Positions 3,446 to 63,202 of a DNA stretch of 64,000 nt are shown piece after piece. Numbering within the stretch: position 1 is the stretch's first letter; every line of letters begins with the position of its first letter. The position numbers and the translations under genes were made by a program. The notes under the pieces were generated by a model. That model saw only the letters and a program-made list of their open reading frames with translations. It was not told the DNA's origin and ran no database searches. This DNA is from Eledone cirrhosa (lineage: Eukaryota): positions 21,080,001-21,144,000 of the forward strand of contig OZ024745.1 in the NCBI GenBank assembly GCA_964016885.1, in the 5' to 3' direction.

Positions 3446-3591
3446 GGTGGTGTTATTATAGTAATGGTGGTAGTAGTGGTGGTGGTGGTAGTATAGTAGT
3501 GGTGGTGGTAGTAGTAGCAGTAGTAGTAGTAGTAGTAATAGCGGTAGTAGTATTAGTAGTAGCGGTGGTAGTAGTAGTGGTGGTAGTAGTT

Positions 3592-3985: not shown

Positions 3986-5400
3986 CTGCAGCAGCAGCAG
4001 TAGTAGTTGTAGTAGTAGTAGTAGTAGCTGCAGCAGTAGTAGTAGTAGTAGTAGTAGCAGCAGCAGTAGCAGTAGTAGTAGTAGCAGTAGCAGTAGTAGT
4101 AGTAGTAGTAGTAGTGAAGGTGGTTTGTGAAAAGTGTTCATCTCAGCATGTATCAAAATCTATCATGGCCATAATCCCCCCCACCACCACCACCACCATC
4201 ATTTATATCATCATCATCATCATCATCATCAACGTCATCATCACCATCATTTATATCATCATCATCATCATCATCATCATCATTTATATCATCATCACCA
4301 TCATCACCATCATCATCACCATCACCATCACCATCACCATCATCACCATCACCAACATCATCATCACCATCACCAACATCATCATCACCAATACCATCAT
4401 CATCATCATCATCAGTCTTCGTTATCGTCGTAATAAAACAACAACAATAATAATAATTGGTTCTACTTTTGGCACAAGGCCAGAAATCTCCCAGTGTATT
4501 ACTGGTGTCATTTCTGGAAGTCATTCAGCGCTGTCGTTGATGTTGATGTCTTTATTGATGGTTGTGTTGTGTGTGTGTATGTGTGTATATGTGTGTGTAT
4601 GTGTGTGTATGTGTGTATGGTTGTGTGTGTGTGTGTGTGTATGTGTGTGTGTGTATATGTGTGTGTATGTGTGTTTGTCTGTGTGTGTGATTGTGTGTGT
4701 GTATATGTATGTATGGGTGTGTGATTGTGTTGTGTGTGTTTGTGTATGTGTGTATATGTGTGTGTATGGGTGTATGTTTGTGTGTATGTGTGTTTTATTG
4801 TGTGTGTGTGGGTGTATGGATGTGTGGTTGTGTTTGTAAGTATATGTGTGTGTATGGGTGTGTGATTGTGTAGTGTGTGTGTGTATGTGTGTATATGTGT
4901 GTGTATGGGTGTATGTTTGTGTTTGTGCGTATGTGTGTGTATATGTATGTATGGGTGTGTGATTGTGTGTGTATATGTATGTATGGGTGTGTGATTGTGT
5001 GTGTGTGTGTGTGTATATGTATGTGTATATATGTATGTACGGGTGTGTGATTGTGTGCGTGTGTGTGTATGTGTATGTGTATATGTGTATATATGTATAT
5101 GGTGTATCTGTGTGTGTACGGGTGTGTGATTGTGTGCGTGTGTGTTTATGTATATATGAGTGTGTATGAGGGTGTGATTCTGTGCGTGTGTGTGTATGTG
5201 TATGATTGTGTGTGTATAGGTGTGTGATTGTGTGTGTTTGTGTGTGTGTGTGTGTATGTACATGTGTGTGATTGTGTGTGTGTGTGTATGCACGGGTGTG
5301 TGATTGTATATGGTGTATGTGTGTGCGTATGGGTGTGTGATTGTGTACGTGTGTGTGTGTGTATTTGTATGTACGGGTGTGTGTGCGTGTGTGTGTGTGT
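2170..5400. repeat. Compound microsatellite block: (CTA)n, (CAC)n, (TAG)n, (CAT)n, degenerate (TG)n
   Basis: Directly visible; explains the poly-T/L/H/P/V ORFs. Confidence 0.95.
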
Positions 5401-5904
5401 TTTACGAGCTGCGCATAAATAATAAAGAAAAATGAAAAAGGGCGATAAAAAAGAAAAGTAGAGAAAGTAATAAGAAAGGGAGTAAGACACAGAGGAAGGG
5501 GCAGGAGAAGAGGAATAGATGGAGGAAGAAATAGGATTGATGAGTTAGGAGTGGTAAGAAAGGAGGGGGGGAGGTGTTAGGGTGACGGTTAAGTATATTT
5601 GGTGTTGGGCAAGGTTTTCATCGATATTTCATAATTACGAATTGCGCGTAGCGCTTATTGGAGCTTCAGTAATCCCACTCATGCGCAATCTATCGAGCAA
5701 CTGAAACGTGGAAACAAGCAATGCCAAAGCAACCAATCACAAGATTACCTCTCCATCGTATATATATATATATATATAATATGTAACCCATGTGCAACCA
5801 CGCAGTATTCCTCTTTCTTCCCATGTTTTTTATAAATATATATACATATATATAGTGAAAACTTGGACGGGAACAAAAACAGAGAGGCAGTACAAATAAA
5901 TGTT

Positions 5905-5954
<50 letters not shown>

Positions 5955-13911: not shown

Positions 13912-15636
13912 ATGACGAAAACAACGAAAAAAAAAAAATTTGAAAAATTGCATGACAATACTAATAACACAAACAAAGACACAACAAACAAAAAAATAAC
14001 AGTTGAAAATAACATCATATCAGAAAACAAAGCAGACGACCAGATTTCATTTGCACAGAAAACAAAGAAATCTTTGACTTATATAGCGGAAAACATTTCA
14101 GATGTGGTACGAAGGATCACGGACGCAAAACAATACATAAGTGAAGGTGAGAATGGTATTTTATTGGTAAAAATGCCTCAAGAATTCACGAAAGACATTG
14201 AAAGCCGAACGGTCAAGTTTCGGACCATCAACAACAGTACAAAAAAACCTGAACAGCCTTCTCAAGCAGATATCAAAACAGTACTCGCAGAAGTACTGAA
14301 TGAAACAACTTTCATAAGAAAAGACAGACTGTATGGAAGTCTAGCAATTATCATGAAGAACGAATCGGCAGCAAAAAAATGTGCTTTGTCACCGATTCGT
14401 TCGAAAAATTTCACCTTTTATCCATCTTATATGGGAAAAAAAACTCAACGCATATGGCTGGATGCAATGATGCCAGATGTGGACTACTGCTGGCTCATAG
14501 CTGGCTTCATCGATCCAGTGAATGACAACGTGATTTCCATTGGGAAAACCACAGGCAATGCGTTCAGTGGAACAGGTATAGAGCTGGTAGTACAAATGAA
14601 GCCTGAACGCATCGCCCAAATACCCGACAGAATCCTATTAGAGGACCACGGGTATATAAACATTAGCGTGGAGGGGAGAAGGCCGTCCTGCCATATCTGT
14701 GCAGGCAGAGGGCACCTGAAGGCCGCTTGTCCCCAACTCAACAAAAAGAAAACCCTGCTACCAACACCAGCTCCACCACCACCACCACAACAGATAAACA
14801 AACAACAAAACTCAGTCCCACCCAACCCGTCCCTCAGTAACACCACAACACCACCACAACACAAACAGTCACAACACATTACCCCAAAACAAAATACAGG
14901 CCCACCCAACCTCTCACTCAATAAAACAACACAACCACCGCAGACACAACACACAACACAGTCTAACATAGTGACATCCATCTCCCCCACAAAGAAAACC
15001 AACACGGAAACATTACCAGCAAACATACCTCTTCCCTCCAACACTGAAGATAACCCAACGAATTCGGAGGAAGAAACGGAGTCCTTCAGACAGATTAAAA
15101 GGAAAAAAAGAAAACATGTGCAAAACACACAAGGACAAACAACCCCCACCCAAATCGCAACACAATCTAACAAAACAGAAAACACCCCTCCAGCAACAAA
15201 CAAAACCAAACCTGCCCCTCCCCTCTTCGAAACACTCACACCATCGGAAAAAAAGACATTACACTATACTTACATCAACAGAAACAATAATAAATTAAAT
15301 GAACTCATATACAATAATCCTTCGGTACAAACCGAAGGTGTAAACTTTGTTTCATCAGAAAACCACCCACATTTAAAACTAATAAAAATCCCAATGAACC
15401 TCTACCAAAAACTAAAAAAGGATTTTAAGGAGGACGTAGGACCACCCTCTGTCAAACCCATAAACCGCGTCCTACTAAAAAGCTTTCCCCCTCCCCTTCC
15501 CCTCCCCAACACAACTCCAAACACCCCAACCCCACCACACACCGACGACCCTACACCACCACAAGACACCCCTTCACCCAACACCCCCGACCCCATGGAA
15601 GTCGTGCAACCCGAACCCCGGGAAGCGGAAAGGTAG
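13912..15636 (+). CDS. LINE ORF1 nucleic-acid-binding protein
   Basis: 574 aa; CHICAGRGHLKAAC (CX2CX4HX4C) followed by a P/T/Q-rich tail; ends 33 bp before ORF2. Confidence 0.85.
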   Translation: MTKTTKKKKFEKLHDNTNNTNKDTTNKKITVENNIISENKADDQISFAQKTKKSLTYIAENISDVVRRITDAKQYISEGENGILLVKMPQEFTKDIESRTVKFRTINNSTKKPEQPSQADIKTVLAEVLNETTFIRKDRLYGSLAIIMKNESAAKKCALSPIRSKNFTFYPSYMGKKTQRIWLDAMMPDVDYCWLIAGFIDPVNDNVISIGKTTGNAFSGTGIELVVQMKPERIAQIPDRILLEDHGYINISVEGRRPSCHICAGRGHLKAACPQLNKKKTLLPTPAPPPPPQQINKQQNSVPPNPSLSNTTTPPQHKQSQHITPKQNTGPPNLSLNKTTQPPQTQHTTQSNIVTSISPTKKTNTETLPANIPLPSNTEDNPTNSEEETESFRQIKRKKRKHVQNTQGQTTPTQIATQSNKTENTPPATNKTKPAPPLFETLTPSEKKTLHYTYINRNNNKLNELIYNNPSVQTEGVNFVSSENHPHLKLIKIPMNLYQKLKKDFKEDVGPPSVKPINRVLLKSFPPPLPLPNTTPNTPTPPHTDDPTPPQDTPSPNTPDPMEVVQPEPREAER

Positions 15637-15669
15637 GTCTCTACACTCTCCTTTGGCTCTGCCGCCCAC

Positions 15670-18600
15670 ATGGATGTGTTAAGAGTAGGATGTTTGAATG
15701 CACGTGGCCTGGGCTCAACTTGGAAGCAAGCAAAGCTTCTAAATGACCTCAGGTCATGTAGTATAAATGTAATGGTTATCTGTGAGACTCGAATCAGCGT
15801 CATGCGGCAGCTGGCCCCCACCTTCGATGACTTTGAGGTGCATGCATCTCTCTGTCAACCTGGAGGTGGGGGTGGGGTTGTCGTGCTGATGCAAAAACAC
15901 CTGGGTCTTGCCGTACAGGTTGTGCACTCGGACCCGGAGGGTCGTTTGTTGGTGCTAGACGTTGGCAGTAGTGAAAGTGCGGCCTTGAGACTGGTCGCCG
16001 TCTACTCCCCTTTCGGAGCTGAACGGCCCGACTTCTTCCAGCGTTTGGAGACTTTTCTGGGAACGTCGCGTTCCCTGCTTCTAGCGGGGGATTGGAATGA
16101 CATCCTAGATGCACGTTGGGACTATGCAGGAGCATGTCCTAATAGAGGGGGGTGTAACAGCCTCAAGGGGTTACTCGACCGTTTTAACTTGGTCGATAGA
16201 TATCGACTAGATTTTCCAACTGTGCCTACCTGGACTTGGAGAAACCACAGTGGTCAATCTAGATCGTACTTAGATAGATTCTTAGTTAGAAGTAAGGATA
16301 GGGACATATTAAGCTGTCCAGAAATGCGCACGGTTGGCTACACGGATCACAAATTAGTGACCTGCGTGGTCAATCTCGAGAAAACACATAGACAGGGTCC
16401 CGGTTACTGGAAACTTAATTTGTCTTTACCGGCAAAAGAGACTTACAGAAACCGGATTAGCAGATTAGTTAAGGAGAGGTTGACGGGTGCAATCGTCAAC
16501 AACCGATGGTGGGCATCTCTCAAAAGAGAGATTAGAACAGAATCAATAAGTTATAGCAAGATGTTAGCTGCCAATAGGAATAGAAACGAGAAAGAATTAA
16601 CAGGTAAATTAGAAGAGGCAATCAAGAGCGAAGATGTGGCCAGAGTGCTGGCATCGAGGACGGCCTTGAACCAGTTTTTCGATGCAAAGCATGAAGGCTG
16701 CGTCATTCGAAGTAAAATACGTGCTCTAGGTAATGAGGGGGCCAAAGCCGTTGGATGGGCCCGCGTGACAGAAGCTAAAAGTGGAAATCGATCCACCATC
16801 CGGTCGTTGCAAGACGAAGATGGACGAGTGATCCGGGAGCCTAAGCAGATGTGCGAGGCCTTTCAAAAGCACTTTGCCCGATTGTTCGGGGGAGGCGGGG
16901 GTCCGGGCCGAGGCGTGGATTTCGGTCCATACCTCGACGGCCTGCCGCGTCTCTCGAACAAAGAGGCGGAGTCCTGCGAGGGACCAATCTCGGCTGATGA
17001 GATCGGAGATGCGCTGAGCCAATGCAGCAGACGCAAATCTCCAGGTCTCGATGGTATACCTTACGAACTTTATTTAGCAATGCCGGTCTTCTTCTCCGAA
17101 CTCCTCGAAGCGGTCTACTGCAATTGGCAGCAGAACGGGAGAATTCCTTGTTCTGTAGCCAAGGGCGTAGTCACGCTGGTGAGGAAGGACGAGAACAAGG
17201 GGGATAGTATAAATAATTTTCGGCCCATAACCCTGCTAAACACAGAGTTAAAGATTTTGGCCAAGGTGTTAGCAAAGAGGTTGGCGCTTGTCGTGGGTGG
17301 CCTGGTGGGAGATGCGCAGACATGTGCTATCCCATCCAGGTCCATTCACGATAACCTCCACCTCATGCGATACATCATAGAGAGGGTTGGCAACAAACCC
17401 GGCTTCGGTGGGGCCCTGATCAACTTGGATCAGTCTAAGGCCTTCGATAGGGTCGACCATGGTTACCTGGATGCGGTGCTAGCGGCGGCTGGGTTCGGTC
17501 CTGTTTTCAGAGGCTGGATCACTGCCCTACATAGCAACCACATCTGTTCTAGGATCAAGGTGAACGGCTACCTTTCGAAGCCGTTCGAAATCACACGATC
17601 CATTCGACAGGGGTGCCCTCTCTCCTCCCTTCTGTACGTATTGACTCTCGAGCCTTTACTGAGGAAGTTGGAGTTGTTGCAGGGTATCCCCCTGGAACCA
17701 GGATTGAGCAAAGCGGTGTCGGCCTACGCCGATGACGTAACAGTAATGGTATCAACCGACTCGGAGATCGAGGCGATCGGTACCTTACTGGAGGAGTACG
17801 AAAGGTTGTCAGGAGCGAAACTGAACCGGGAAAAATCCATCGGGCTGCAACTCGGAACGTGGAGAGGCAGACCTATGCCTCCCGATGGTGTCGTCGGACA
17901 CTGGACGGAGGGCCCGGTAAAGTTGCTTGGGGTCTGGTTTGGACCGGACCTCCAGGTGGAAAAGAACTGGAACGAGGTTACGAACAAGGTGTTTGCACTA
18001 ACCCAGAAATGGGCCAAGTGTAAGCTGTCCCTAAAAGGCCGGGCGGAGGTGGCGAACATTTACATAGCGTCCGTCACTTACTACCGCCTGACTGTCGTGC
18101 CTTGCCCTAAGGAAACACTCACCACCATGGAACGCATGCTCTTCCAATTTCTTTGGAAGAAGCGTCCTCCTATGGTGAGAAGATCCATCTGCTGCCAACA
18201 ACCTTCGAAAGGAGGGCTGGGGATGCCGTGGTTGATGATGCGTAGGCACGCATTAAGGCTACGGCACCTACAGGTCTTCCTCACTGGTCAACCGGTGTGG
18301 GCTCCGTTCGTGAAACGAGCCTTTCCGAGACTCGTCTCACTCACCGAGCTACAGTCCTGGGTCAAGCAAAGATCCGGAAAACTGGGAGACTGGCACACTG
18401 AGTGTGCTCAGGCGCTCAGGGCTCTCTGGTAAGCGGGCCGGGCCATCGGTGGAGAATCCACCTCATCATTCTATAGAGGGCTGGTGGCTAGCAGGGGCGA
18501 TGACACCCTTGGAGAGTCGCTGGACATGGAAGAAGACGAACTGGCCAGCCTGTTCGGTAGGACTTTCGGCCCAGGACCAATGGACAACTTCCAGAAGTCA

Positions 18601-19107
18601 CTGGCCTGGCAGTGCTACCGGGGGGCTCTACCCGTTCGAGAGAGGCTCTACAGACACGGGCGCCCGGGCAGGGATCCCTCAAAAAAGATTTGCCCTAGAT
18701 GCGTGCGTCACGAAGAAACCGTAGCGCACGCATTGGTGCAATGTCCGGGCGTGGCTGATCTGTGGGGCTACGCCGAACAACTGCTGTCGCGGGTGGCGCC
18801 GATTAAATTGACCGCCGAGTCTGTGATGACAATCAAACCGCCTCCCCTCTTCACAAAGGAAGCAAAGGCGGTTTTTCTGTGCGTAATAGCCATGTTGAAA
18901 GAGGTTGTTTGGTGGACACGATTGAAAGGTCTGAGGTCAGGCAACTTCCTCTCTGGCCATAGTCTGGTCTACTTCTTCCGATATCACTTCGGAAGAAGGA
19001 TAAGAATGGAGAGAGAGGTGCTTGGCCACAGGCAGTTTTATGAAAGGTGGGTGATAGTGGCGAGAATGGCTCGTGTAAATGGGCCTTCTCTGTATACCAT
19101 CCTGTAG
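15670..19107 (+). pseudogene. LINE ORF2 (APE endonuclease + reverse transcriptase + C-terminal Zn finger) with one in-frame stop at 18430-18432
   Basis: LNARGL, GDWN, YLDR, TDH (APE); KSPGLDG, FRPITLLN, KAFD, RQGCPLS, YADD (RT); CPRC..ETVAHALVQC. ORFs at 15670 and 18484 are in the same frame. Confidence 0.92.
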
Positions 19108-32807: not shown

Positions 32808-33308
<501 letters not shown>

Positions 33309-33313
<5 letters not shown>

Positions 33314-33827
33314 GAAAAATTGAACAGGGACAGAACAGAGAGGCAGTACGATAAATGTTTATTAAATTCACGCTCAGGAGAGTGGGGGGTAGGTGGGGGA
33401 CGACGTTTCGAGCATAAGCCCTTCTTCAGGTGAGAGTTCAAAAGGTGTGTAGGGGAGTGGTGGAGAGACATATAGCGAAAGGAAACGGTGCGAATGAAAA
33501 GTTAGGTAATGCGTGGAAGGAAAGACAAAGTGTGGGAAGGTGTGTAAAGTTCGGAGAAAGGTCACGGCGGATTAGATCGGGGTTGAGCCGGTTGTTAAGT
33601 TAAGTTCCAAGGATGGAGGCCGTGTGAGCGTGTGTTATGTATAATGAAAAATTGAACAGGGACAGAACAGAGAGGCAGTACGATAAATGTTTATTAAATT
33701 CACGCTCAGGAGAGTGGGGGGTAGGTGGGGGACGACGTTTCGGGCATAAGCCCTTCTTCAGGTGAGAGTTCAAAAGGTGTGTAGGGGAGTGGTGGAGAGA
33801 CATATAGCGAAAGGAAACGGTGCGAAT
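33309..33827 (-). mobile_element. Retrozyme / Penelope pLTR-like partial tandem, 332-nt period, with hammerheads at 33400-33431 and 33732-33763
   Basis: 187-bp direct repeats 33309-33495 / 33641-33827; each has CTGAAGA AGGGCTTATGC(T/C)C GAAA CG TC on the minus strand. Confidence 0.75.
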
Positions 33828-34449
33828 TATATGAAAGGATTCAGGACACCGACAGCTCCGGCTGTTTCGACAGCTAGATCTGACAGCTGTCGAAACAGTC
33901 GGGTCTCAACCGTCGGGGCCCTGAATCTTTTCATAATACCTACTCTATTACACCAAGTATCGAGTACTCTGGTACGTTATTGTCCCCCTCTTATCTTACC
34001 ACACCCGCTTTGTTTTACATATATATATACTTATAAGAAAAGGATTTTTTTTAAATAAAAAAAATGAGATGTCCTACACGGGTGAAGGTATAAGGAAAAG
34101 AAATCGAAAATGCAACTGTAGTCTTTATATATATATATATGTGTGTGTGTGTGTAATATGTAGGTTCCCGAGTGGTGATGGTGGTAGTGGTGGTGGTTAT
34201 AGTGGTGATGGTGGTGGTTATAGTGGTGGTGGTGGTGTTGGTGGTTATAGTGGTGGTGGTGGTGGTTATAGTGGTGGTGGTGGTGGTAGTGGTGGTGTTG
34301 GTGGTTATAGTGGTGGTGGTGGTGGTTATAGCGGTGGTGGTGGTGGTAGTGGTGGTGTTGGTGGTGGTTATAGTGGTGGTGTTGGTGGTGGTGGTGTAAA
34401 CTCAACGTAACTCAATTTATTGGTAGAGTATAGGCCTCTTTATTACATA

Positions 34450-37400
34450 TTTCATTTCATTTCATTTCATTTGAGTTTGAGTCCATGCTCAGGCCAAGTC
34501 GAAGACTCCACCCTCAGAGTCTGGTGTGGTTGCCAGGTTGGATTCTCTGTTTAATTTTGACATGTGTAGGAGCGAGTTTGAGTCAGTTTGTGCTCGTTGT
34601 GTATATCCTGGGAGATGGGGTTTATCTTTAATGGTGCTTAAGTATCTATCCAGCTGCAATTTGAATGATTCCACACTGCATCCTGATAGATTTCTGACAT
34701 GTACCGGAATGGAGTTGAATAGTTGTGCCCCTCGAACCAACAGACTTGACTCTCGCAGGGTTTTTGCTGCCTGGCCAGCCTTTTTGTTGATTGGTGGTAG
34801 CTGGCAGCGTCTTCCGTGGCGCAGTGAGTGGTAGGTTTTGATACCAAAGTTTGGTACCTTTTGCTCTATCATTTTCCAAATGTATATAATTCGGTATCGC
34901 TCAAATCTTCTTTCTATTGAGTACATCTTCAAGGTTTTGAGTCTTTGCCAATAGTCCAGGTCCCTCGTTTCTGAGAAGTATGAGGTAAAATTTCTTTGGA
35001 GCGATTCCATCTTAGATAGTTGGCCCTTTGTTGTTGGTGACCACAACTGAGAACAGTAGTCAATCCTCGGAAGTATCATACTTTTCCAGAGGGTCTTCAT
35101 TGTTGAGGTATCTCTTGATTTGAAAGTGCGCAAGATCCACCCGCTGTACTTTCTTGAAGTAAGACAGACTGAGTCAAGGTGTTCTCAGAATTTTAGGCTG
35201 GTTCCCATGTGGATGCCTAAATCTTTCACACACTGTTTTTCCATTATTTGTTGTCCTGATGGGTTTCTGTAGTTTGTTGTATTTTTCAGATCTTGATCTG
35301 TTCCGTAGCGAATTAGTTCAAACTTCTTATCATTGAACATGTTGTTTGTTTCCTGCCATTTGTATATGGTGGTCAGGTCCTTTTGTAAGGCCTCTGTATC
35401 CACCTCGTCTTTGATTTGTCTCATGACCCTGGTGTCATCAGCAAAGGATGAGACGTTGCTGGTTGTATCTTCATCTATGTCAGAGATGAGGATGAGAAAC
35501 AGGATCGGGCCGAGTACTGTACCCTTAGGAACACTGCTGGTCACAGGTGATGGTGTTGAATGGGTTCCATTCACAGTGACTGTTTGAGTTCTATTTGTAA
35601 GGAACTCATGTATCCATGTACCAACTTTTCCTCCTACTCCTAGCTTTCGAAGTTTGTGTCCCAGGATGCCATGATCTACCTTGTCAAATGCCTTGGCAAA
35701 GTCGAGGTAAATAACATCTGTGTTGTATCCATTCTCTAGATTTTCTAGGATTTGGTCATGGTGTGCCAGTAGTTGGGAAAGACATGATCTACCTAACCTG
35801 AATCCATGCTGGTTGCAATTCATCAGATTGTTGGATTCCAGGAACTCAACCAGTTTTCCACGAACTATTCTTTCGAAGACCTTGATAATGTGTGATGTCA
35901 GTGAGATTGGTCGGTAGTTCTTTGGTTTTGATTTGCTGTCCCCTTTATGTATTGGAGTTATGTGTGCTTCTTTATATGTATTTGGTATTTTGCCATTCTC
36001 CATAGATTCCTTCCATATCATGTAAAGGGGTTTCAACAATTGTACCTTGCAGTTTTTAAGTATCATGGCATTGAAAACATCAGGCCCCGCGGCCGAGTGC
36101 ATGGAGAGCTTGTCTATGGCTCTTTCTATATCTTCTGGGTTGAAATCAATGTCGGATAGGGTAGGTTTAGTATGGTCGATATCCTTGAAGAATTCTCCTG
36201 GGTCATGGATCGTCATGGTTTTAGATGGCTCACTGAAGACACTTTCATACTGTTGACCCAACATTTCTGCCATTTCAATAGGGTTATTCACTACATCTCC
36301 ATTTTGTCTCTGGAGAGGTCCTATTGTTGACTTGGTTTTCGAGTATTTCTTTGCAAAACTGTAGAAATATTTTGGATTTTTCTTGATGTTTTCTATGGCT
36401 CTCTTTTCTGCATTGTTACGTTCTTCATCATAGTGTTGTTTTAGATTGTCTTCTAATCTGTATATTTGGTCAAGGACTTTCTGTAGTTCATGTTTTGATG
36501 TCAGCTTAGATGTTTTGTTTCTTAGTCTTGACCTTTTGCGCATCAGGATCTTTCGCTCCCGTGGTTCAGGTTTTTTTGTGGATTTGGTTTTCTTAAGAGG
36601 AATATTTTTTGCACATATTTCTTCTATCTTGTTAAAGAATTTTTTGTGTTTATCTGGCCCAGTAAGGTAGAGATCCCAGTCAATGATTTGTAACTGGTTG
36701 TTAATAGTTTCCCAATTTGCCTGGTGATAATCATACCTGCATAGCTTTGGCATGTCCTTTTGTTTAAGAGTTGTGGCATTGGGCTCATTACCAATGTGTA
36801 AATGCATTTCAATAATATTGTGGTCTGAAAGGATTGTTGGGGTTGAGTGAAGGTCAAATAGCGTGTCCTCGTTGTTGGTGAAAACCAAGTCGATCGTATT
36901 ATTATTTCTAGTTGCTTCTGTCATCATTTGTTTGAGGTATAATTTCTCTGTGACTTCCAACAGTTTGGCTGCCTGTATTTGTTCAGCTTTTGTCCCCAGT
37001 TTTAGTATGTGTCCATGTGGCCAGATGATGTTAGGGAAGTTGAAGTCACCAAGGAGGATAATGTCTGGCATTGGACTCGCCATGTTTCCCAGAATTTGTT
37101 GGAGCTTTGTCAGTGGCTCAGTGAAGGATAATGTTGGGCTGTTTGGCGGTCTGTACATTATTGTTACAACTGTATTAAGTTGGATGATTGTTATGCACAG
37201 CAGGTTGCAGTAGGCATTTGATTCATTGACAAGTTCTATGCATGCATAGGTATCATGGAAATACATGATAACGCCCCCATGGGATCTGACTTGTCTATCA
37301 CATCTGAAGATGTTGAATCCATTGATTGAGATTTCGCTGTTGCGGATGTTTTCGTTGAGATGACTTTCAGTAATTCCAATTATTTTGGAGTTGTTTTCTG

Positions 37401-37850
37401 TTGCTAATTCTTCCAAGAAAGGGACTTTAGACTGTTTTGTTTTCGGATAAAGACCCTGGATATTTGCTGTTATTATGCTTGTTGTACCGGATACATCTGC
37501 CCTATTGTTGGCAAGACTGTTGTAGTTGCTGGGACTGTGCTGACTGGATATTCGGCCTGCTGGGCTGTCTGTATTTGTTGTATGTGCCCTGTAAGTCCAG
37601 GTGTCAGCCTTTGTATCAATGTTGCCTGGTTTTGCTGAAATGTTTTTTATAGGATTGGGACTGTTTCATTCGTATGAAGAAGCAATTTCTGTAATAAATA
37701 GTCGTGTCTTTAAGTTCAGTTATCGTTGTGGTCTTCGATTTTCTTACCTGAAGTTGCTCGCACATTCCTCGGTTTGTTGTTGTTTTTTCGCTGTTTTCTC
37801 TTTTCTTCCCTTTCCCTTCTATTTTCCTTCCCTCCCCTCCTCCGTTTTCC
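34450..37850 (-). mobile_element. CR1-group LINE with a (TGAAA)n 3' tail, lacking most of ORF1; 5' boundary approximate
   Basis: ORF2 APE+RT, short 3' UTR, four TGAAA repeats near 34450-34470. Confidence 0.85.
34489..37665 (-). pseudogene. LINE ORF2 (APE + RT) with one in-frame TGA at 35185-35187
   Basis: NIQGL (upstream of the track start), GDFN, SDH, YRPISLTS, DFAKAFD, VPKGTVLGP, FADD, DYCSQLWSP. The 743-aa and 214-aa ORFs share a frame. Confidence 0.9.
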
Positions 37851-57227: not shown

Positions 57228-59095
57228 ATTACCGGTTTCAGCATTTTTATGCATTATCAAATGATAATAATATGTATTGGTGTAGAATGGTGGTGTTGAA
57301 CATGTTAAAGAAATGGTGCAGAAGGAATAATGTTATTTACAAATAAGGTTTATGAAGTGAAAATAAAAAATAAAAAAGGGGCGTAATGTGGAGCATAATA
57401 AGTCAATGTGAAAGAAAAAATGTTATTTACAGGAATAGTTCTTGAAGATAAGCAGATCAAAATGTGTTAATATAGCAAGATTGCTTAGTTGATCCATAAT
57501 GGAGGCAAATGGTGGACTGGGGTTTGATATGATTTCCCTTTTTAGAGAGATAATATGCAGGGGGGGGGGGGTGTAATTCATGCTGGATGATATTTAATTT
57601 ATTTAAGAAAAAGTATTAGGTAGGGTGTGAGGCAGGTAACTCTTTAGAGAAACATAGATATTTGTAAATGTTTGATTGTTCGTTCCAGTTTTAGCTCAGT
57701 CCGAAGTTTAGTGCATTAAGTAGAGGTTGGAATTTGTTAATGAAATGCGTTTCCTTATTGGTACGATGGATGAAAGTAGCGTTTTCTATGAATTTGTAAA
57801 TGGGGAAAATTTTAAAGTTTAGGTGTTGGTTGGGTGCACAATTGGCGATATTTTCACTAAATGCAATCTTTCTGTATTCCTGTATTTTGATTTGTGACAT
57901 ACGTTGTCGGAGGCTGTTTTTTGTCTGTCCTTTGTAGTGCTCTTGACAACCTGAGCAGGTCAAAACATAGATTAGGTTTTTAGATGCACATGTAAAGTTG
58001 TTTTTAACTGTGAAATGTGTCCTTGTTTAAAATGGAATGTTGAACCTTCTATTAGTTTATGCATATGCCACAGTTGGGCCTTCCGCATTTTGTTACTGTA
58101 GGGTTCGTTGTGAGGGTTTGTTGGATTTTGGCATGTGTGAGGATGTTTTTTATGGATTTAGGCTGTGTTTTGCTCTTTATGATGTTGTGTGTTTGGAGGA
58201 TTTTGTTCATTCTTGAGTCTCTTTTTAGTAAAGGAATGTTCTGGAGGATGGTGTCGAATGCCTCATTGTTGAGGTGGTTGTGTGTGGAGATGTATGGTAG
58301 AGTTTTCTGTTGCGGTTCATTCCTGGGTTTGGGGTGTCTGAGTTCCTGGATGTCGAGTTTTAGGGCACGTTGGAATCCATTGTTGATTAGGGATGGTGGG
58401 TAGTTTCTGTTGATAAGTGTGTTTTTTAATTCTTCTAGTCGTGTGTAGCATGTGTATTTATCTGAAACTATTGTGCAGATCCTTTTGGCTAGGTTACTAG
58501 GAATTGCCATTTTGGTGTGTCTAGGGTGGCACGAGTTGAATGGAAGGTATTGTTTGGAGTCTGTGGGTTTGTAGTATATGTCCGTTTCTATTTTGTTGTT
58601 GTTTTTTTCTTGATGAGGATGTCGAGGAAAGTGAGTTGTTCATGGCTGTAATCCATTGTGAATTGTAAGTTTGTGTTGAGTACATTCAGAAAGGTTTTAA
58701 ACTCAATCAGTCTATCTATACTTTCATGCCAGAGGATGAAGCAGTCGTCCAGATATCTCTTCCAGTTCTTTTCTATGTGTTGGTAGAGGGGGTTGCCGTA
58801 TTTGTCTAGAACTTTTCGGTAGAGAGTCGTTTCCAAATATCCCATGACAAGGATGGCGTACGAGAGGGCTACTTTCGTGCCCATGGCAGTCCCATATTTC
58901 TGTCTGTAGTATTTGGCATTGAATTCGAAGAAATTGTTTTCCAAGATGATTTTGAGTCCCTCCAACACAAATTCTTTAGGGATGCGCTGTGGAGGCTCAC
59001 TAGGGAAATTTTCAAGCCAGAATTGTATTGCCTCTATACCTAGGTTGTGTAGGACATTGGAATATAAATTGATGACATCGAAGGTTACTAGTAGG
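57228..59095 (-). mobile_element. 5'-truncated Penelope-like element: RT + GIY-YIG pseudogene (about 57691-59095), 3' UTR, variant hammerhead at 57228-57262
   Basis: FDVINLYSNV, GTAMGT, RYLDDCF, FLDI (RT); KCGRPNCGIC linker; LIYVLTCSGCQEHYKGQT..HRTNKE (GIY-YIG); several frameshifts and stops. Confidence 0.88.
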
Positions 59096-63026: not shown

Positions 63027-63095
63027 GAGGATTAATGGCTCATATACACAGATACTGACGACGGTTAGAACATATCCTGGAAAAAACACGTAACG

Positions 63096-63133
<38 letters not shown>

Positions 63134-63202
63134 CGTTACGTGTTTTTTCCAGGATATGTTCTAACCGTCGTCAGTATCTGTGTATATGAGCCATTAATCC
63201 TC
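63027..63202. repeat. Perfect 176-bp palindrome centred on (TA)n, with a hammerhead core in each arm
   Basis: CTGACGA at 63055-63061, GTTA/TAAC helix II base, GAAA at 63095-63098 running into (TA)n; exact mirror on the other strand. Confidence 0.85.

What the first reader, a model, noticed from the sequence alone, without database searches (positions are those of the whole stretch)
33309..33827. 332-nt retrozyme-like monomer bracketed by two same-strand hammerheads
Seen: 187-bp direct repeats at a 332-nt period, each carrying CTGAAGA-A-GGGC-TTAT-GC(T/C)C-GAAA-CG-TC on the minus strand. The one difference inside helix II (G-U versus G-C) preserves pairing. No ORF. A related fragment lies at about 5865-5910. 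Established: non-LTR retrozymes are tandem monomers of a few hundred nt that are released by hammerheads and circularise. Inference: a minus-strand transcript would give a 332-nt linear or circular RNA.
Basis: partly seen in the sequence, partly recalled or inferred. Interest (0 to 1): 0.75.

Follow-up and report, generated by a model that had tools for sequence, protein, structure and literature searches.

The report
Shortened Penelope retrotransposon with two hammerheads
This stretch is the two ends of a common 4.7-kb jumping gene joined with its middle missing, likely a copying by-product rather than a separate self-cutting circular-RNA element, but the same gene family has left many such short units in this genome, one grown into an 87-kb array, which may show how ribozyme repeats are born.

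Summary
The 188-nt repeats, 332-nt period and two minus-strand hammerhead cores are real. They are the terminal repeat (pLTR) of a young 4.7-kb Neptune-type Penelope-like element. All 12 long best-hit loci fetched run from the same sequence into a reverse-transcriptase ORF, 10 with pLTRs 4.67-4.75 kb apart. The window copy is pLTR + the first 140 nt of the 5'UTR + pLTR, lacking 4,386 nt, inserted in (TA)n. Its exact junction occurs once in the 3-Gb assembly, so there is no 332-nt retrozyme family. The hammerhead is the Penelope minimal type with a 2-bp helix I; the 332-mer folds no better than shuffles. No RNA run could be tested. The 5.9-kb fragment holds no hammerhead. The family-level picture is more interesting: 26 of 69 sampled 5'-end loci are such minis, nearly all with private junctions. 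Five repeat their junction within one insertion, and one 416-nt unit forms an 87-kb array. This points to repeated copying of short templates (circle or end-to-end jump). The scan noted the same kind of thing on other genomes (e1-9938426, e1-8031083), and a 2026 preprint proposes the Penelope origin of retrozymes.

The parts
33644..33827 (-). Upstream partial pLTR: last 184 nt of the parent unit (positions 4535-4718 of the natural 4,718-nt unit L034:3590-8307)
   Evidence: blastn 99.5% over 184 nt (mapping)
33504..33643 (-). First 140 nt of the parent element's 5'UTR (parent ATG at 462)
   Evidence: 99.3% to unit 1-140; in long copies it continues into the rest of the UTR and the ORF
33503..33504 (-). 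Junction parent 140 -> about 4527; 4,386 nt missing, 1-nt microhomology
   Evidence: 4718-4386=332; the exact junction has 1 match in the assembly, plus 1 at the same breakpoint in another subfamily
33312..33503 (-). Downstream pLTR: last ~192 nt of the parent, ending at the family's usual 3' end
   Evidence: 98.9% to unit 4530-4718; by the printed ends, most copies end the same way in (TA)n
33732..33763 (-). Hammerhead motif 1 (Penelope minimal type I; predicted cut 33734/33733; helix I 2 bp, helix II 4 bp, helix III palindrome ACGU)
   Evidence: sequence; helix I tally
33400..33431 (-). Hammerhead motif 2 (same, with G-U in helix II; predicted cut 33402/33401)
33358..33363 (-). AATAAA polyA-type signal of the downstream pLTR (second copy 33690-33695)
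   Evidence: sequence
33260..33311 (.). (TA)n target tract at the 3' end; a short TATAT at 33828-33832 marks the 5' end
   Evidence: sequence; same target in the family
5847..5912 (-). Separate, diverged 3'-terminal scrap of the same superfamily in (TA)n; no hammerhead
   Evidence: 83-84% to the last 55-66 nt

Best explanation
The 516-base stretch is the terminal repeat, the first 140 bases and the terminal repeat again of a 4.7-kb Neptune-type Penelope-like retrotransposon, with 4,386 bases missing, and it was likely written in one insertion by that element's reverse transcriptase copying a short piece of its own RNA about 1.5 times. Shown: parentage, breakpoints, (TA)n target, single-copy junction. 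Inferred steps: (1) a transcript starts in an upstream pLTR and reads into the 5'UTR. (2) The GIY-YIG endonuclease nicks (TA)n and RT starts at the usual pLTR 3' end. (3) After about 190 nt, at a U-rich tract, RT passes to 5'UTR position 140, by an end-to-end or microhomology jump on a linear RNA or across the joint of a small circle. (4) It runs through the 5'UTR and the pLTR again and stops 8 nt short of the first breakpoint. The two hammerheads are the parent's pLTR motif copied twice. With a 2-bp helix I they are predicted to cut poorly, so the locus likely is a dead-on-arrival non-autonomous copy and not a source of a 332-nt circle.
For: 12 of 12 long best-hit loci fetched continue from the same 324 nt (97-99.7% identical) into an ORF with the KPADKG and/or YIDD motifs; 10 of 12 have the second pLTR 4,672-4,746 nt on. 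The ORF hits RVT_1 weakly (E 1e-4 to 5e-4, below cut-off, 4 of 4) and GIY-YIG weakly (E 0.012). 331 homologues at E<=1e-20 were found; most of the 120 listed carry PF00078 and some PF01541. The linker reads C-x4-C-x2-C, the Neptune/Nematis mark in PMC8557442. The exact junction has 1 match; 3 loci have any junction within 20 nt. 26 of 69 sampled 5'UTR loci are minis. Their junctions differ except for one segmental duplicate pair. Among 40 minis compared, one more pair shares only the register; the same-breakpoint pair window/L046 was not flagged there because the window's junction was mis-aligned, and comes. 5 of the 26 carry their junction twice, 3 of them starting inside the 5'UTR straight after (TA)n, which a later DNA deletion does not give. 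Two such junctions searched occur only at their own locus. Helix I is 2-3 bp in 20 of 30 family copies and 0-1 bp in 10 of 30. 332-mer folding z = -0.29 linear and -0.01 circular.
Against: The window copy itself crosses its junction only once, so for this locus alone a later DNA deletion is not excluded. No intact full-length ORF was seen among the 12 loci (longest open stretch 938 codons), so a currently active parent is inferred from 97-99% identity only. A second locus (C18, L046) has the same breakpoint, but with another subfamily's markers, which may mean a hot spot or shared descent. The core and helix II are very well kept across subfamilies, the D. virilis Penelope hammerhead also has a 2-bp helix I (PMC4209133), and the anole element's hammerhead cuts only with its protein (PMC11167929), so cutting in vivo is not excluded. 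Circle and linear jump cannot be told apart from these data.
Confidence: 0.72

Rival explanations
1. A full-length element inserted here and later lost 4,386 nt by a DNA deletion.
For: Same end product. Microhomology-mediated deletions disable many Penelope copies in Adineta (PMC3846280, passages). Many family junctions show short overlaps.
Against: Only 1 nt of microhomology here. Breakpoints of the family cluster tightly in the first ~100-580 nt and last ~115-500 nt. 5 of 26 sampled minis repeat their junction inside one insertion.
Confidence: 0.13
2. The locus is a nascent retrozyme: it is transcribed, the two hammerheads cut as a dimer with help from the element's protein, and a 332-nt RNA is released and circularised.
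For: Both cores are intact, helix III is palindromic, and the size is typical (PMC7229834). A protein-assisted Penelope hammerhead is reported. The family makes multi-pass insertions and a hammerhead array.
Against: Helix I is 2 bp; the computed probability of its first pair is below 1e-4 in the two-copy transcript. Penelope minimal hammerheads cut poorly even as dimers; 8 of 9 Xenopus dimers did not cut. No daughter copies of this junction were found.
Confidence: 0.1
3. It is one copy of an established 332-nt non-autonomous family mobilised from a mother locus that is missing from this assembly.
For: Same breakpoint at C18 and a near one at C26.
Against: Those two carry the long-subfamily insertion (1,637 copies genome-wide) and a different 5'UTR variant. 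The window copy is about 99% identical to full-length short-subfamily elements.
Confidence: 0.05

Closest known systems
EN+ Penelope-like elements, Neptune/Nematis type, with partial-tandem pLTRs (PMC8557442, passages read; PMC4209133, parts 1-2 of 4 read)
   Same: RT plus C-terminal GIY-YIG ORF in the parent, C-x4-C-x2-C linker, (TA)n target, partial tandems, minimal type I hammerhead in the pLTR with an extra base after A9, a G10.1-C11.1 pair and a palindromic helix III.
   Different: This copy has no ORF. Helix I is 2 bp, as in D. virilis Penelope, not 4-5 bp; helix II is 4 bp. Neptune versus Nematis was not settled (no tree against named references).
Animal non-LTR retrozymes (PMC7229834, passages and Discussion read; bioRxiv 10.64898/2026.07.22.740005, parts 1-3 of 5 read, supplements not seen)
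   Same: Non-coding tandem unit of about 300 nt with same-strand type I hammerhead motifs; proposed to derive from, and be moved by, Penelope-like elements.
   Different: Not a dispersed family (single-copy junction), minimal rather than canonical hammerhead, GC 47%, no structure beyond shuffles, no RNA evidence. Unlike published retrozymes, its parent and breakpoint can be read at about 99% identity.
Poseidon element of Anolis (PMC11167929, parts 1-2 of 4 read)
   Same: AT-rich target, internal RT start, hammerhead not needed for insertion in vitro.
   Different: No 'tail' ends were found at the two junction hot spots tested (0 matches each).

Membership tests
Penelope-like element (parent family) | Single ORF with RT and C-terminal GIY-YIG endonuclease between direct pLTRs | tested here: met
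   Pfam hits on the family's own copies are below cut-off; motif order and 50-57% identical top homologues with RVT_1/GIY-YIG support it. The copies seen are frameshifted.
Penelope-like element (parent family) | Partial-tandem arrangement with variable 5' truncation | tested here: met
   Upstream pLTR parts start between unit positions 3449 and 4668 in the long loci.
Penelope-like element (parent family) | Minimal type I hammerhead in the pLTR | tested here: met
   Core, extra A, helix II and palindromic helix III are present; helix I is 2 bp.
Neptune/Nematis type | CX2-5CxxC linker between RT and EN; microsatellite target | tested here: met
   C-x4-C-x2-C in P0001; (TA)n ends; definition.
Neptune clade proper | RT phylogeny with named Neptune elements | not tested
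   No named reference set was fetched.
Animal non-LTR retrozyme | Non-coding tandem unit of a few hundred nt with same-strand hammerhead motifs | tested here: met
   1.55 units, two cores. Li et al. ask for two consecutive units with complete motifs, which is met only loosely.
Animal non-LTR retrozyme | Canonical type I hammerhead (helix I about 6 bp, loop 1-loop 2 contact) | tested here: not met
   Helix I is 2 bp here and at most 3 bp in 30 of 30 family copies; Rfam silent.
Animal non-LTR retrozyme | The same monomer repeated at many loci or in arrays | tested here: not met
   Exact junction 1 match in 3.0 Gb.
Animal non-LTR retrozyme | Expressed, self-cleaved, circular monomer RNA | not testable with these tools
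   No RNA holder listed.

The most novel reading that the evidence does not exclude
This Penelope family is a retrozyme nursery caught in the act. More than a third of its 5'-end-bearing copies are new pLTR+5'UTR mini-units, each with its own junction. Some were reverse transcribed more than once round a template that has no genomic mother, meaning small RNA circles made de novo from the parent transcript and not by hammerhead cutting. One unit has grown into a 210-copy hammerhead array. The window is one such birth, and gives base-level parent-to-offspring evidence for the Penelope origin of animal retrozymes.
Probability: 0.3. Interest if true: 0.6.

Novelty: new member of a known kind. Interest (0 to 1): 0.3.

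Why it matters
The locus itself is ordinary transposon debris and a caution: two same-strand hammerheads 300 nt apart in an animal genome need a parent search before being called a retrozyme. The family matters more. The Penelope origin of retrozymes is so far argued from co-occurrence and pLTR similarity, and rolling-circle reverse transcription is proposed, not shown. Here dozens of young minis with a parent at up to 99% identity, repeated private junctions and one large array make both ideas testable at single-base level.

Tried and rejected
Rfam: no hammerhead family, only microsatellite-driven miRNA noise. RNA: no RNA holder listed, which is no evidence on expression. Contigs of 4 runs of unknown kind (2 samples, 1 study) cover the family and show loose ends at 33504 that run on into the parent sequence on both sides. 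No listed piece bridged the window's junction, but the lists were cut (32 pieces shown of 3,796 and of 236), so this is no evidence of absence. Alternative cut at the second GUC: 0 bp of helix I in 30 of 30. A rearranged or long-range helix I, prompted by earlier notes on scrambled hammerheads: none seen by eye in 47 distinct copies; no formal covariation test was run. 'Tail' idea, that insertions end at 5'UTR positions 140 or 192 before (TA)n: 0 matches for both exact patterns. Idea that 5' ends stop at the first breakpoint, which would favour a linear template: by eye 2 of 26 sampled minis lie within 10 nt, not clearly above chance; 3 more such cases, the window included, come from hits chosen by similarity and were set aside. 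PDB: no hit for the ORF. Own-scan sequence look-up: nothing. PMC5785218 (Lunse et al.) is not held and was not read. The automatic junction calls over-extended for about 10 of 40 loci, the window included, so overlap lengths there were not counted. Paper searches listed no study of this family or of multi-pass private junctions; subscription journals and Repbase/Dfam were not searchable, so this is weak.

Full report
Observation. The repeat is 188 nt (33308-33495 and 33640-33827), with one mismatch and a 332-nt period. Each copy carries, on the minus strand, the hammerhead core, an extra A, a 4-bp helix II with a UUAU loop, GAAA and CGUC. The fragment near 5.9 kb matches only the last 55-66 nt and has no hammerhead. 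Rfam lists no hammerhead.

Parent. The window lies in a 3.0-Gb genome. The DNA search gave 66 matches from 38 of 1,354 candidates scored, many ending exactly at query base 324. I fetched 12 such loci at 9.9 kb. All 12 run on into an ORF with KPADKG and/or YIDD motifs, and 10 of 12 have a second pLTR 4,672-4,746 nt further on; the other two are shortened. No copy had an unbroken full ORF. The translated ORF has a C-x4-C-x2-C linker and a GIY-YIG-like end. It has weak own Pfam hits and 331 homologues, most of those listed with RVT_1 and some with GIY-YIG. By the criteria in PMC8557442 (passages) this is an EN+ Penelope-like element of Neptune/Nematis type. On one natural 4,718-nt unit (ATG 462, stop 3260, hammerhead 4601) the window reads 4535-4718, then 1-140, then about 4527-4718, then (TA)n, at 98.9-99.5% identity. 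4,718 minus 4,386 gives the 332-nt period.

Is 332 a family? The 26-nt core has 2,448 exact matches; 28 of the first 30 did not run on into the 5'UTR. The window's exact junction has one match. A second locus on C18 shares the breakpoint but carries the markers of a longer subfamily of 1,637 copies, as does a third on C26 with a junction 8 nt shorter. A 5'UTR probe has 372 matches, roughly 200 of them in one array (estimate). I classified 69 loci: 29 from the first 30 listed (one dropped as the same locus) and 40 more in list order. I skipped places already examined and second units or clustered repeats of one locus, so the sample is near-systematic, not random. 39 were long, 26 were minis and 4 were other. 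The minis have periods from about 210 to about 1,075 nt and different junctions, apart from one segmental duplicate pair.

How the minis were made. Five of the 26 (L115, L118, L155, L162, L165) carry their junction twice. Three of these start inside the 5'UTR directly after (TA)n and end at the normal 3' end. The junctions of L118 and L155 occur only at their own loci. This needs a template crossed twice at the same base: a small circle, or repeated jumps on a linear RNA with a fixed end. A later deletion does not explain it. A review places the Penelope start site in the upstream pLTR (PMC6765202, passages), which supplies such an RNA. The window copy crossed once and stopped 8 nt short of its first breakpoint. 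I infer the same route for it, but cannot exclude deletion. In every case the junction is away from the hammerhead cut site and sequence upstream of the motif was copied, so the template was uncut there or re-joined (inference).

The array. On C8 a 416-nt unit (parent 1-208 joined to 4511-4718) runs from about 31,392,300 to 31,480,141, about 210 units by length. Its junction has 199 exact matches, all on one strand; the 100 listed lie in the array and the total fits the array alone. In the 55 kb fetched, 135 units were counted and 117 matched the core pattern. It starts inside the 5'UTR after (TA)n and ends at the usual 3' end. It meets the tandem-units part of the operational retrozyme rule of Li et al. 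(their energy filter was not applied) but shows no sign of having spread; local satellite-like growth is the likely cause of its size.

The ribozyme. Of 30 family copies, 20 have GUC with a 2-3-bp helix I and 10 have less or lack the U; core and helix II are nearly invariant across subfamilies (the first 30 were selected on that core). This matches Penelope minimal hammerheads, including the 2-bp helix I of D. virilis, which cut poorly in vitro (PMC4209133). The anole element's motif cuts only with its protein and is not needed for insertion (PMC11167929). Canonical retrozyme hammerheads have full helices and tertiary contacts (PMC7229834). The 332-mer has 37 G in 332 and folds like its shuffles (folded one base off the predicted cut).

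Surroundings. The insertion sits in (TA)n between two fold-back repeats in a transposon-rich stretch; no host exon was recognised in an ORF listing that was not scanned against families.

Known versus new. Hammerheads in pLTRs, partial tandems and microsatellite targeting are published, and the 2026 preprint argues that retrozymes derive from pLTRs (its supplements were not seen and may list such families). Earlier notes of this scan describe the same kind of shortened copy in other genomes; they are unchecked and not counted as support. Verdict: real feature, new member of a known kind, interest 0.3; the family-level reading is worth 0.6 if true, at about 0.3 probability.

Noticed in passing
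G000:C8:31392300-31480141 (L031, L032, L140-L143, L152): 87-kb head-to-tail array of a 416-nt pLTR+5'UTR unit of the same family, about 210 units, most with an intact hammerhead core; its junction was not seen elsewhere. Best candidate in this family for a retrozyme-like RNA.
   Followed up: partly
L115, L118, L155, L162, L165, L003: Single insertions that repeat a private junction two or three times (periods about 300-571).
   Followed up: partly
parent 5'UTR positions 126, 140, 192, 472: Junctions often leave the 5'UTR right after CCT (140 in four loci, 192 in three, by eye; post hoc, not formally tested).
   Followed up: partly
L047-L109: Several subfamilies keep the core and helix II but vary freely in helix I, and 4 of 30 lack the cleavage-site U: the motif may serve as a protein-binding hairpin.
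   Followed up: partly
window 33120-33261 and about 33830-33945: Fold-back (MITE-like) repeats on both sides of the insertion; the left one has 67-nt arms, 91% complementary. Sequence like the right one flanks other family copies (L007, L010).
   Followed up: no
window 57892-59091, minus strand: A second, distant and broken Penelope-like ORF, 28-39% identical to P0001.
   Followed up: no
window 13912-19104 (+) and 34492-37665 (-): Two LINE-like ORF sets (open stretches of 574, 931 and 826 codons); named from recalled motifs only, not scanned.
   Followed up: no
window 63055-63174: Near-perfect palindrome around a TA tract, which draws the false miRNA hits.
   Followed up: no
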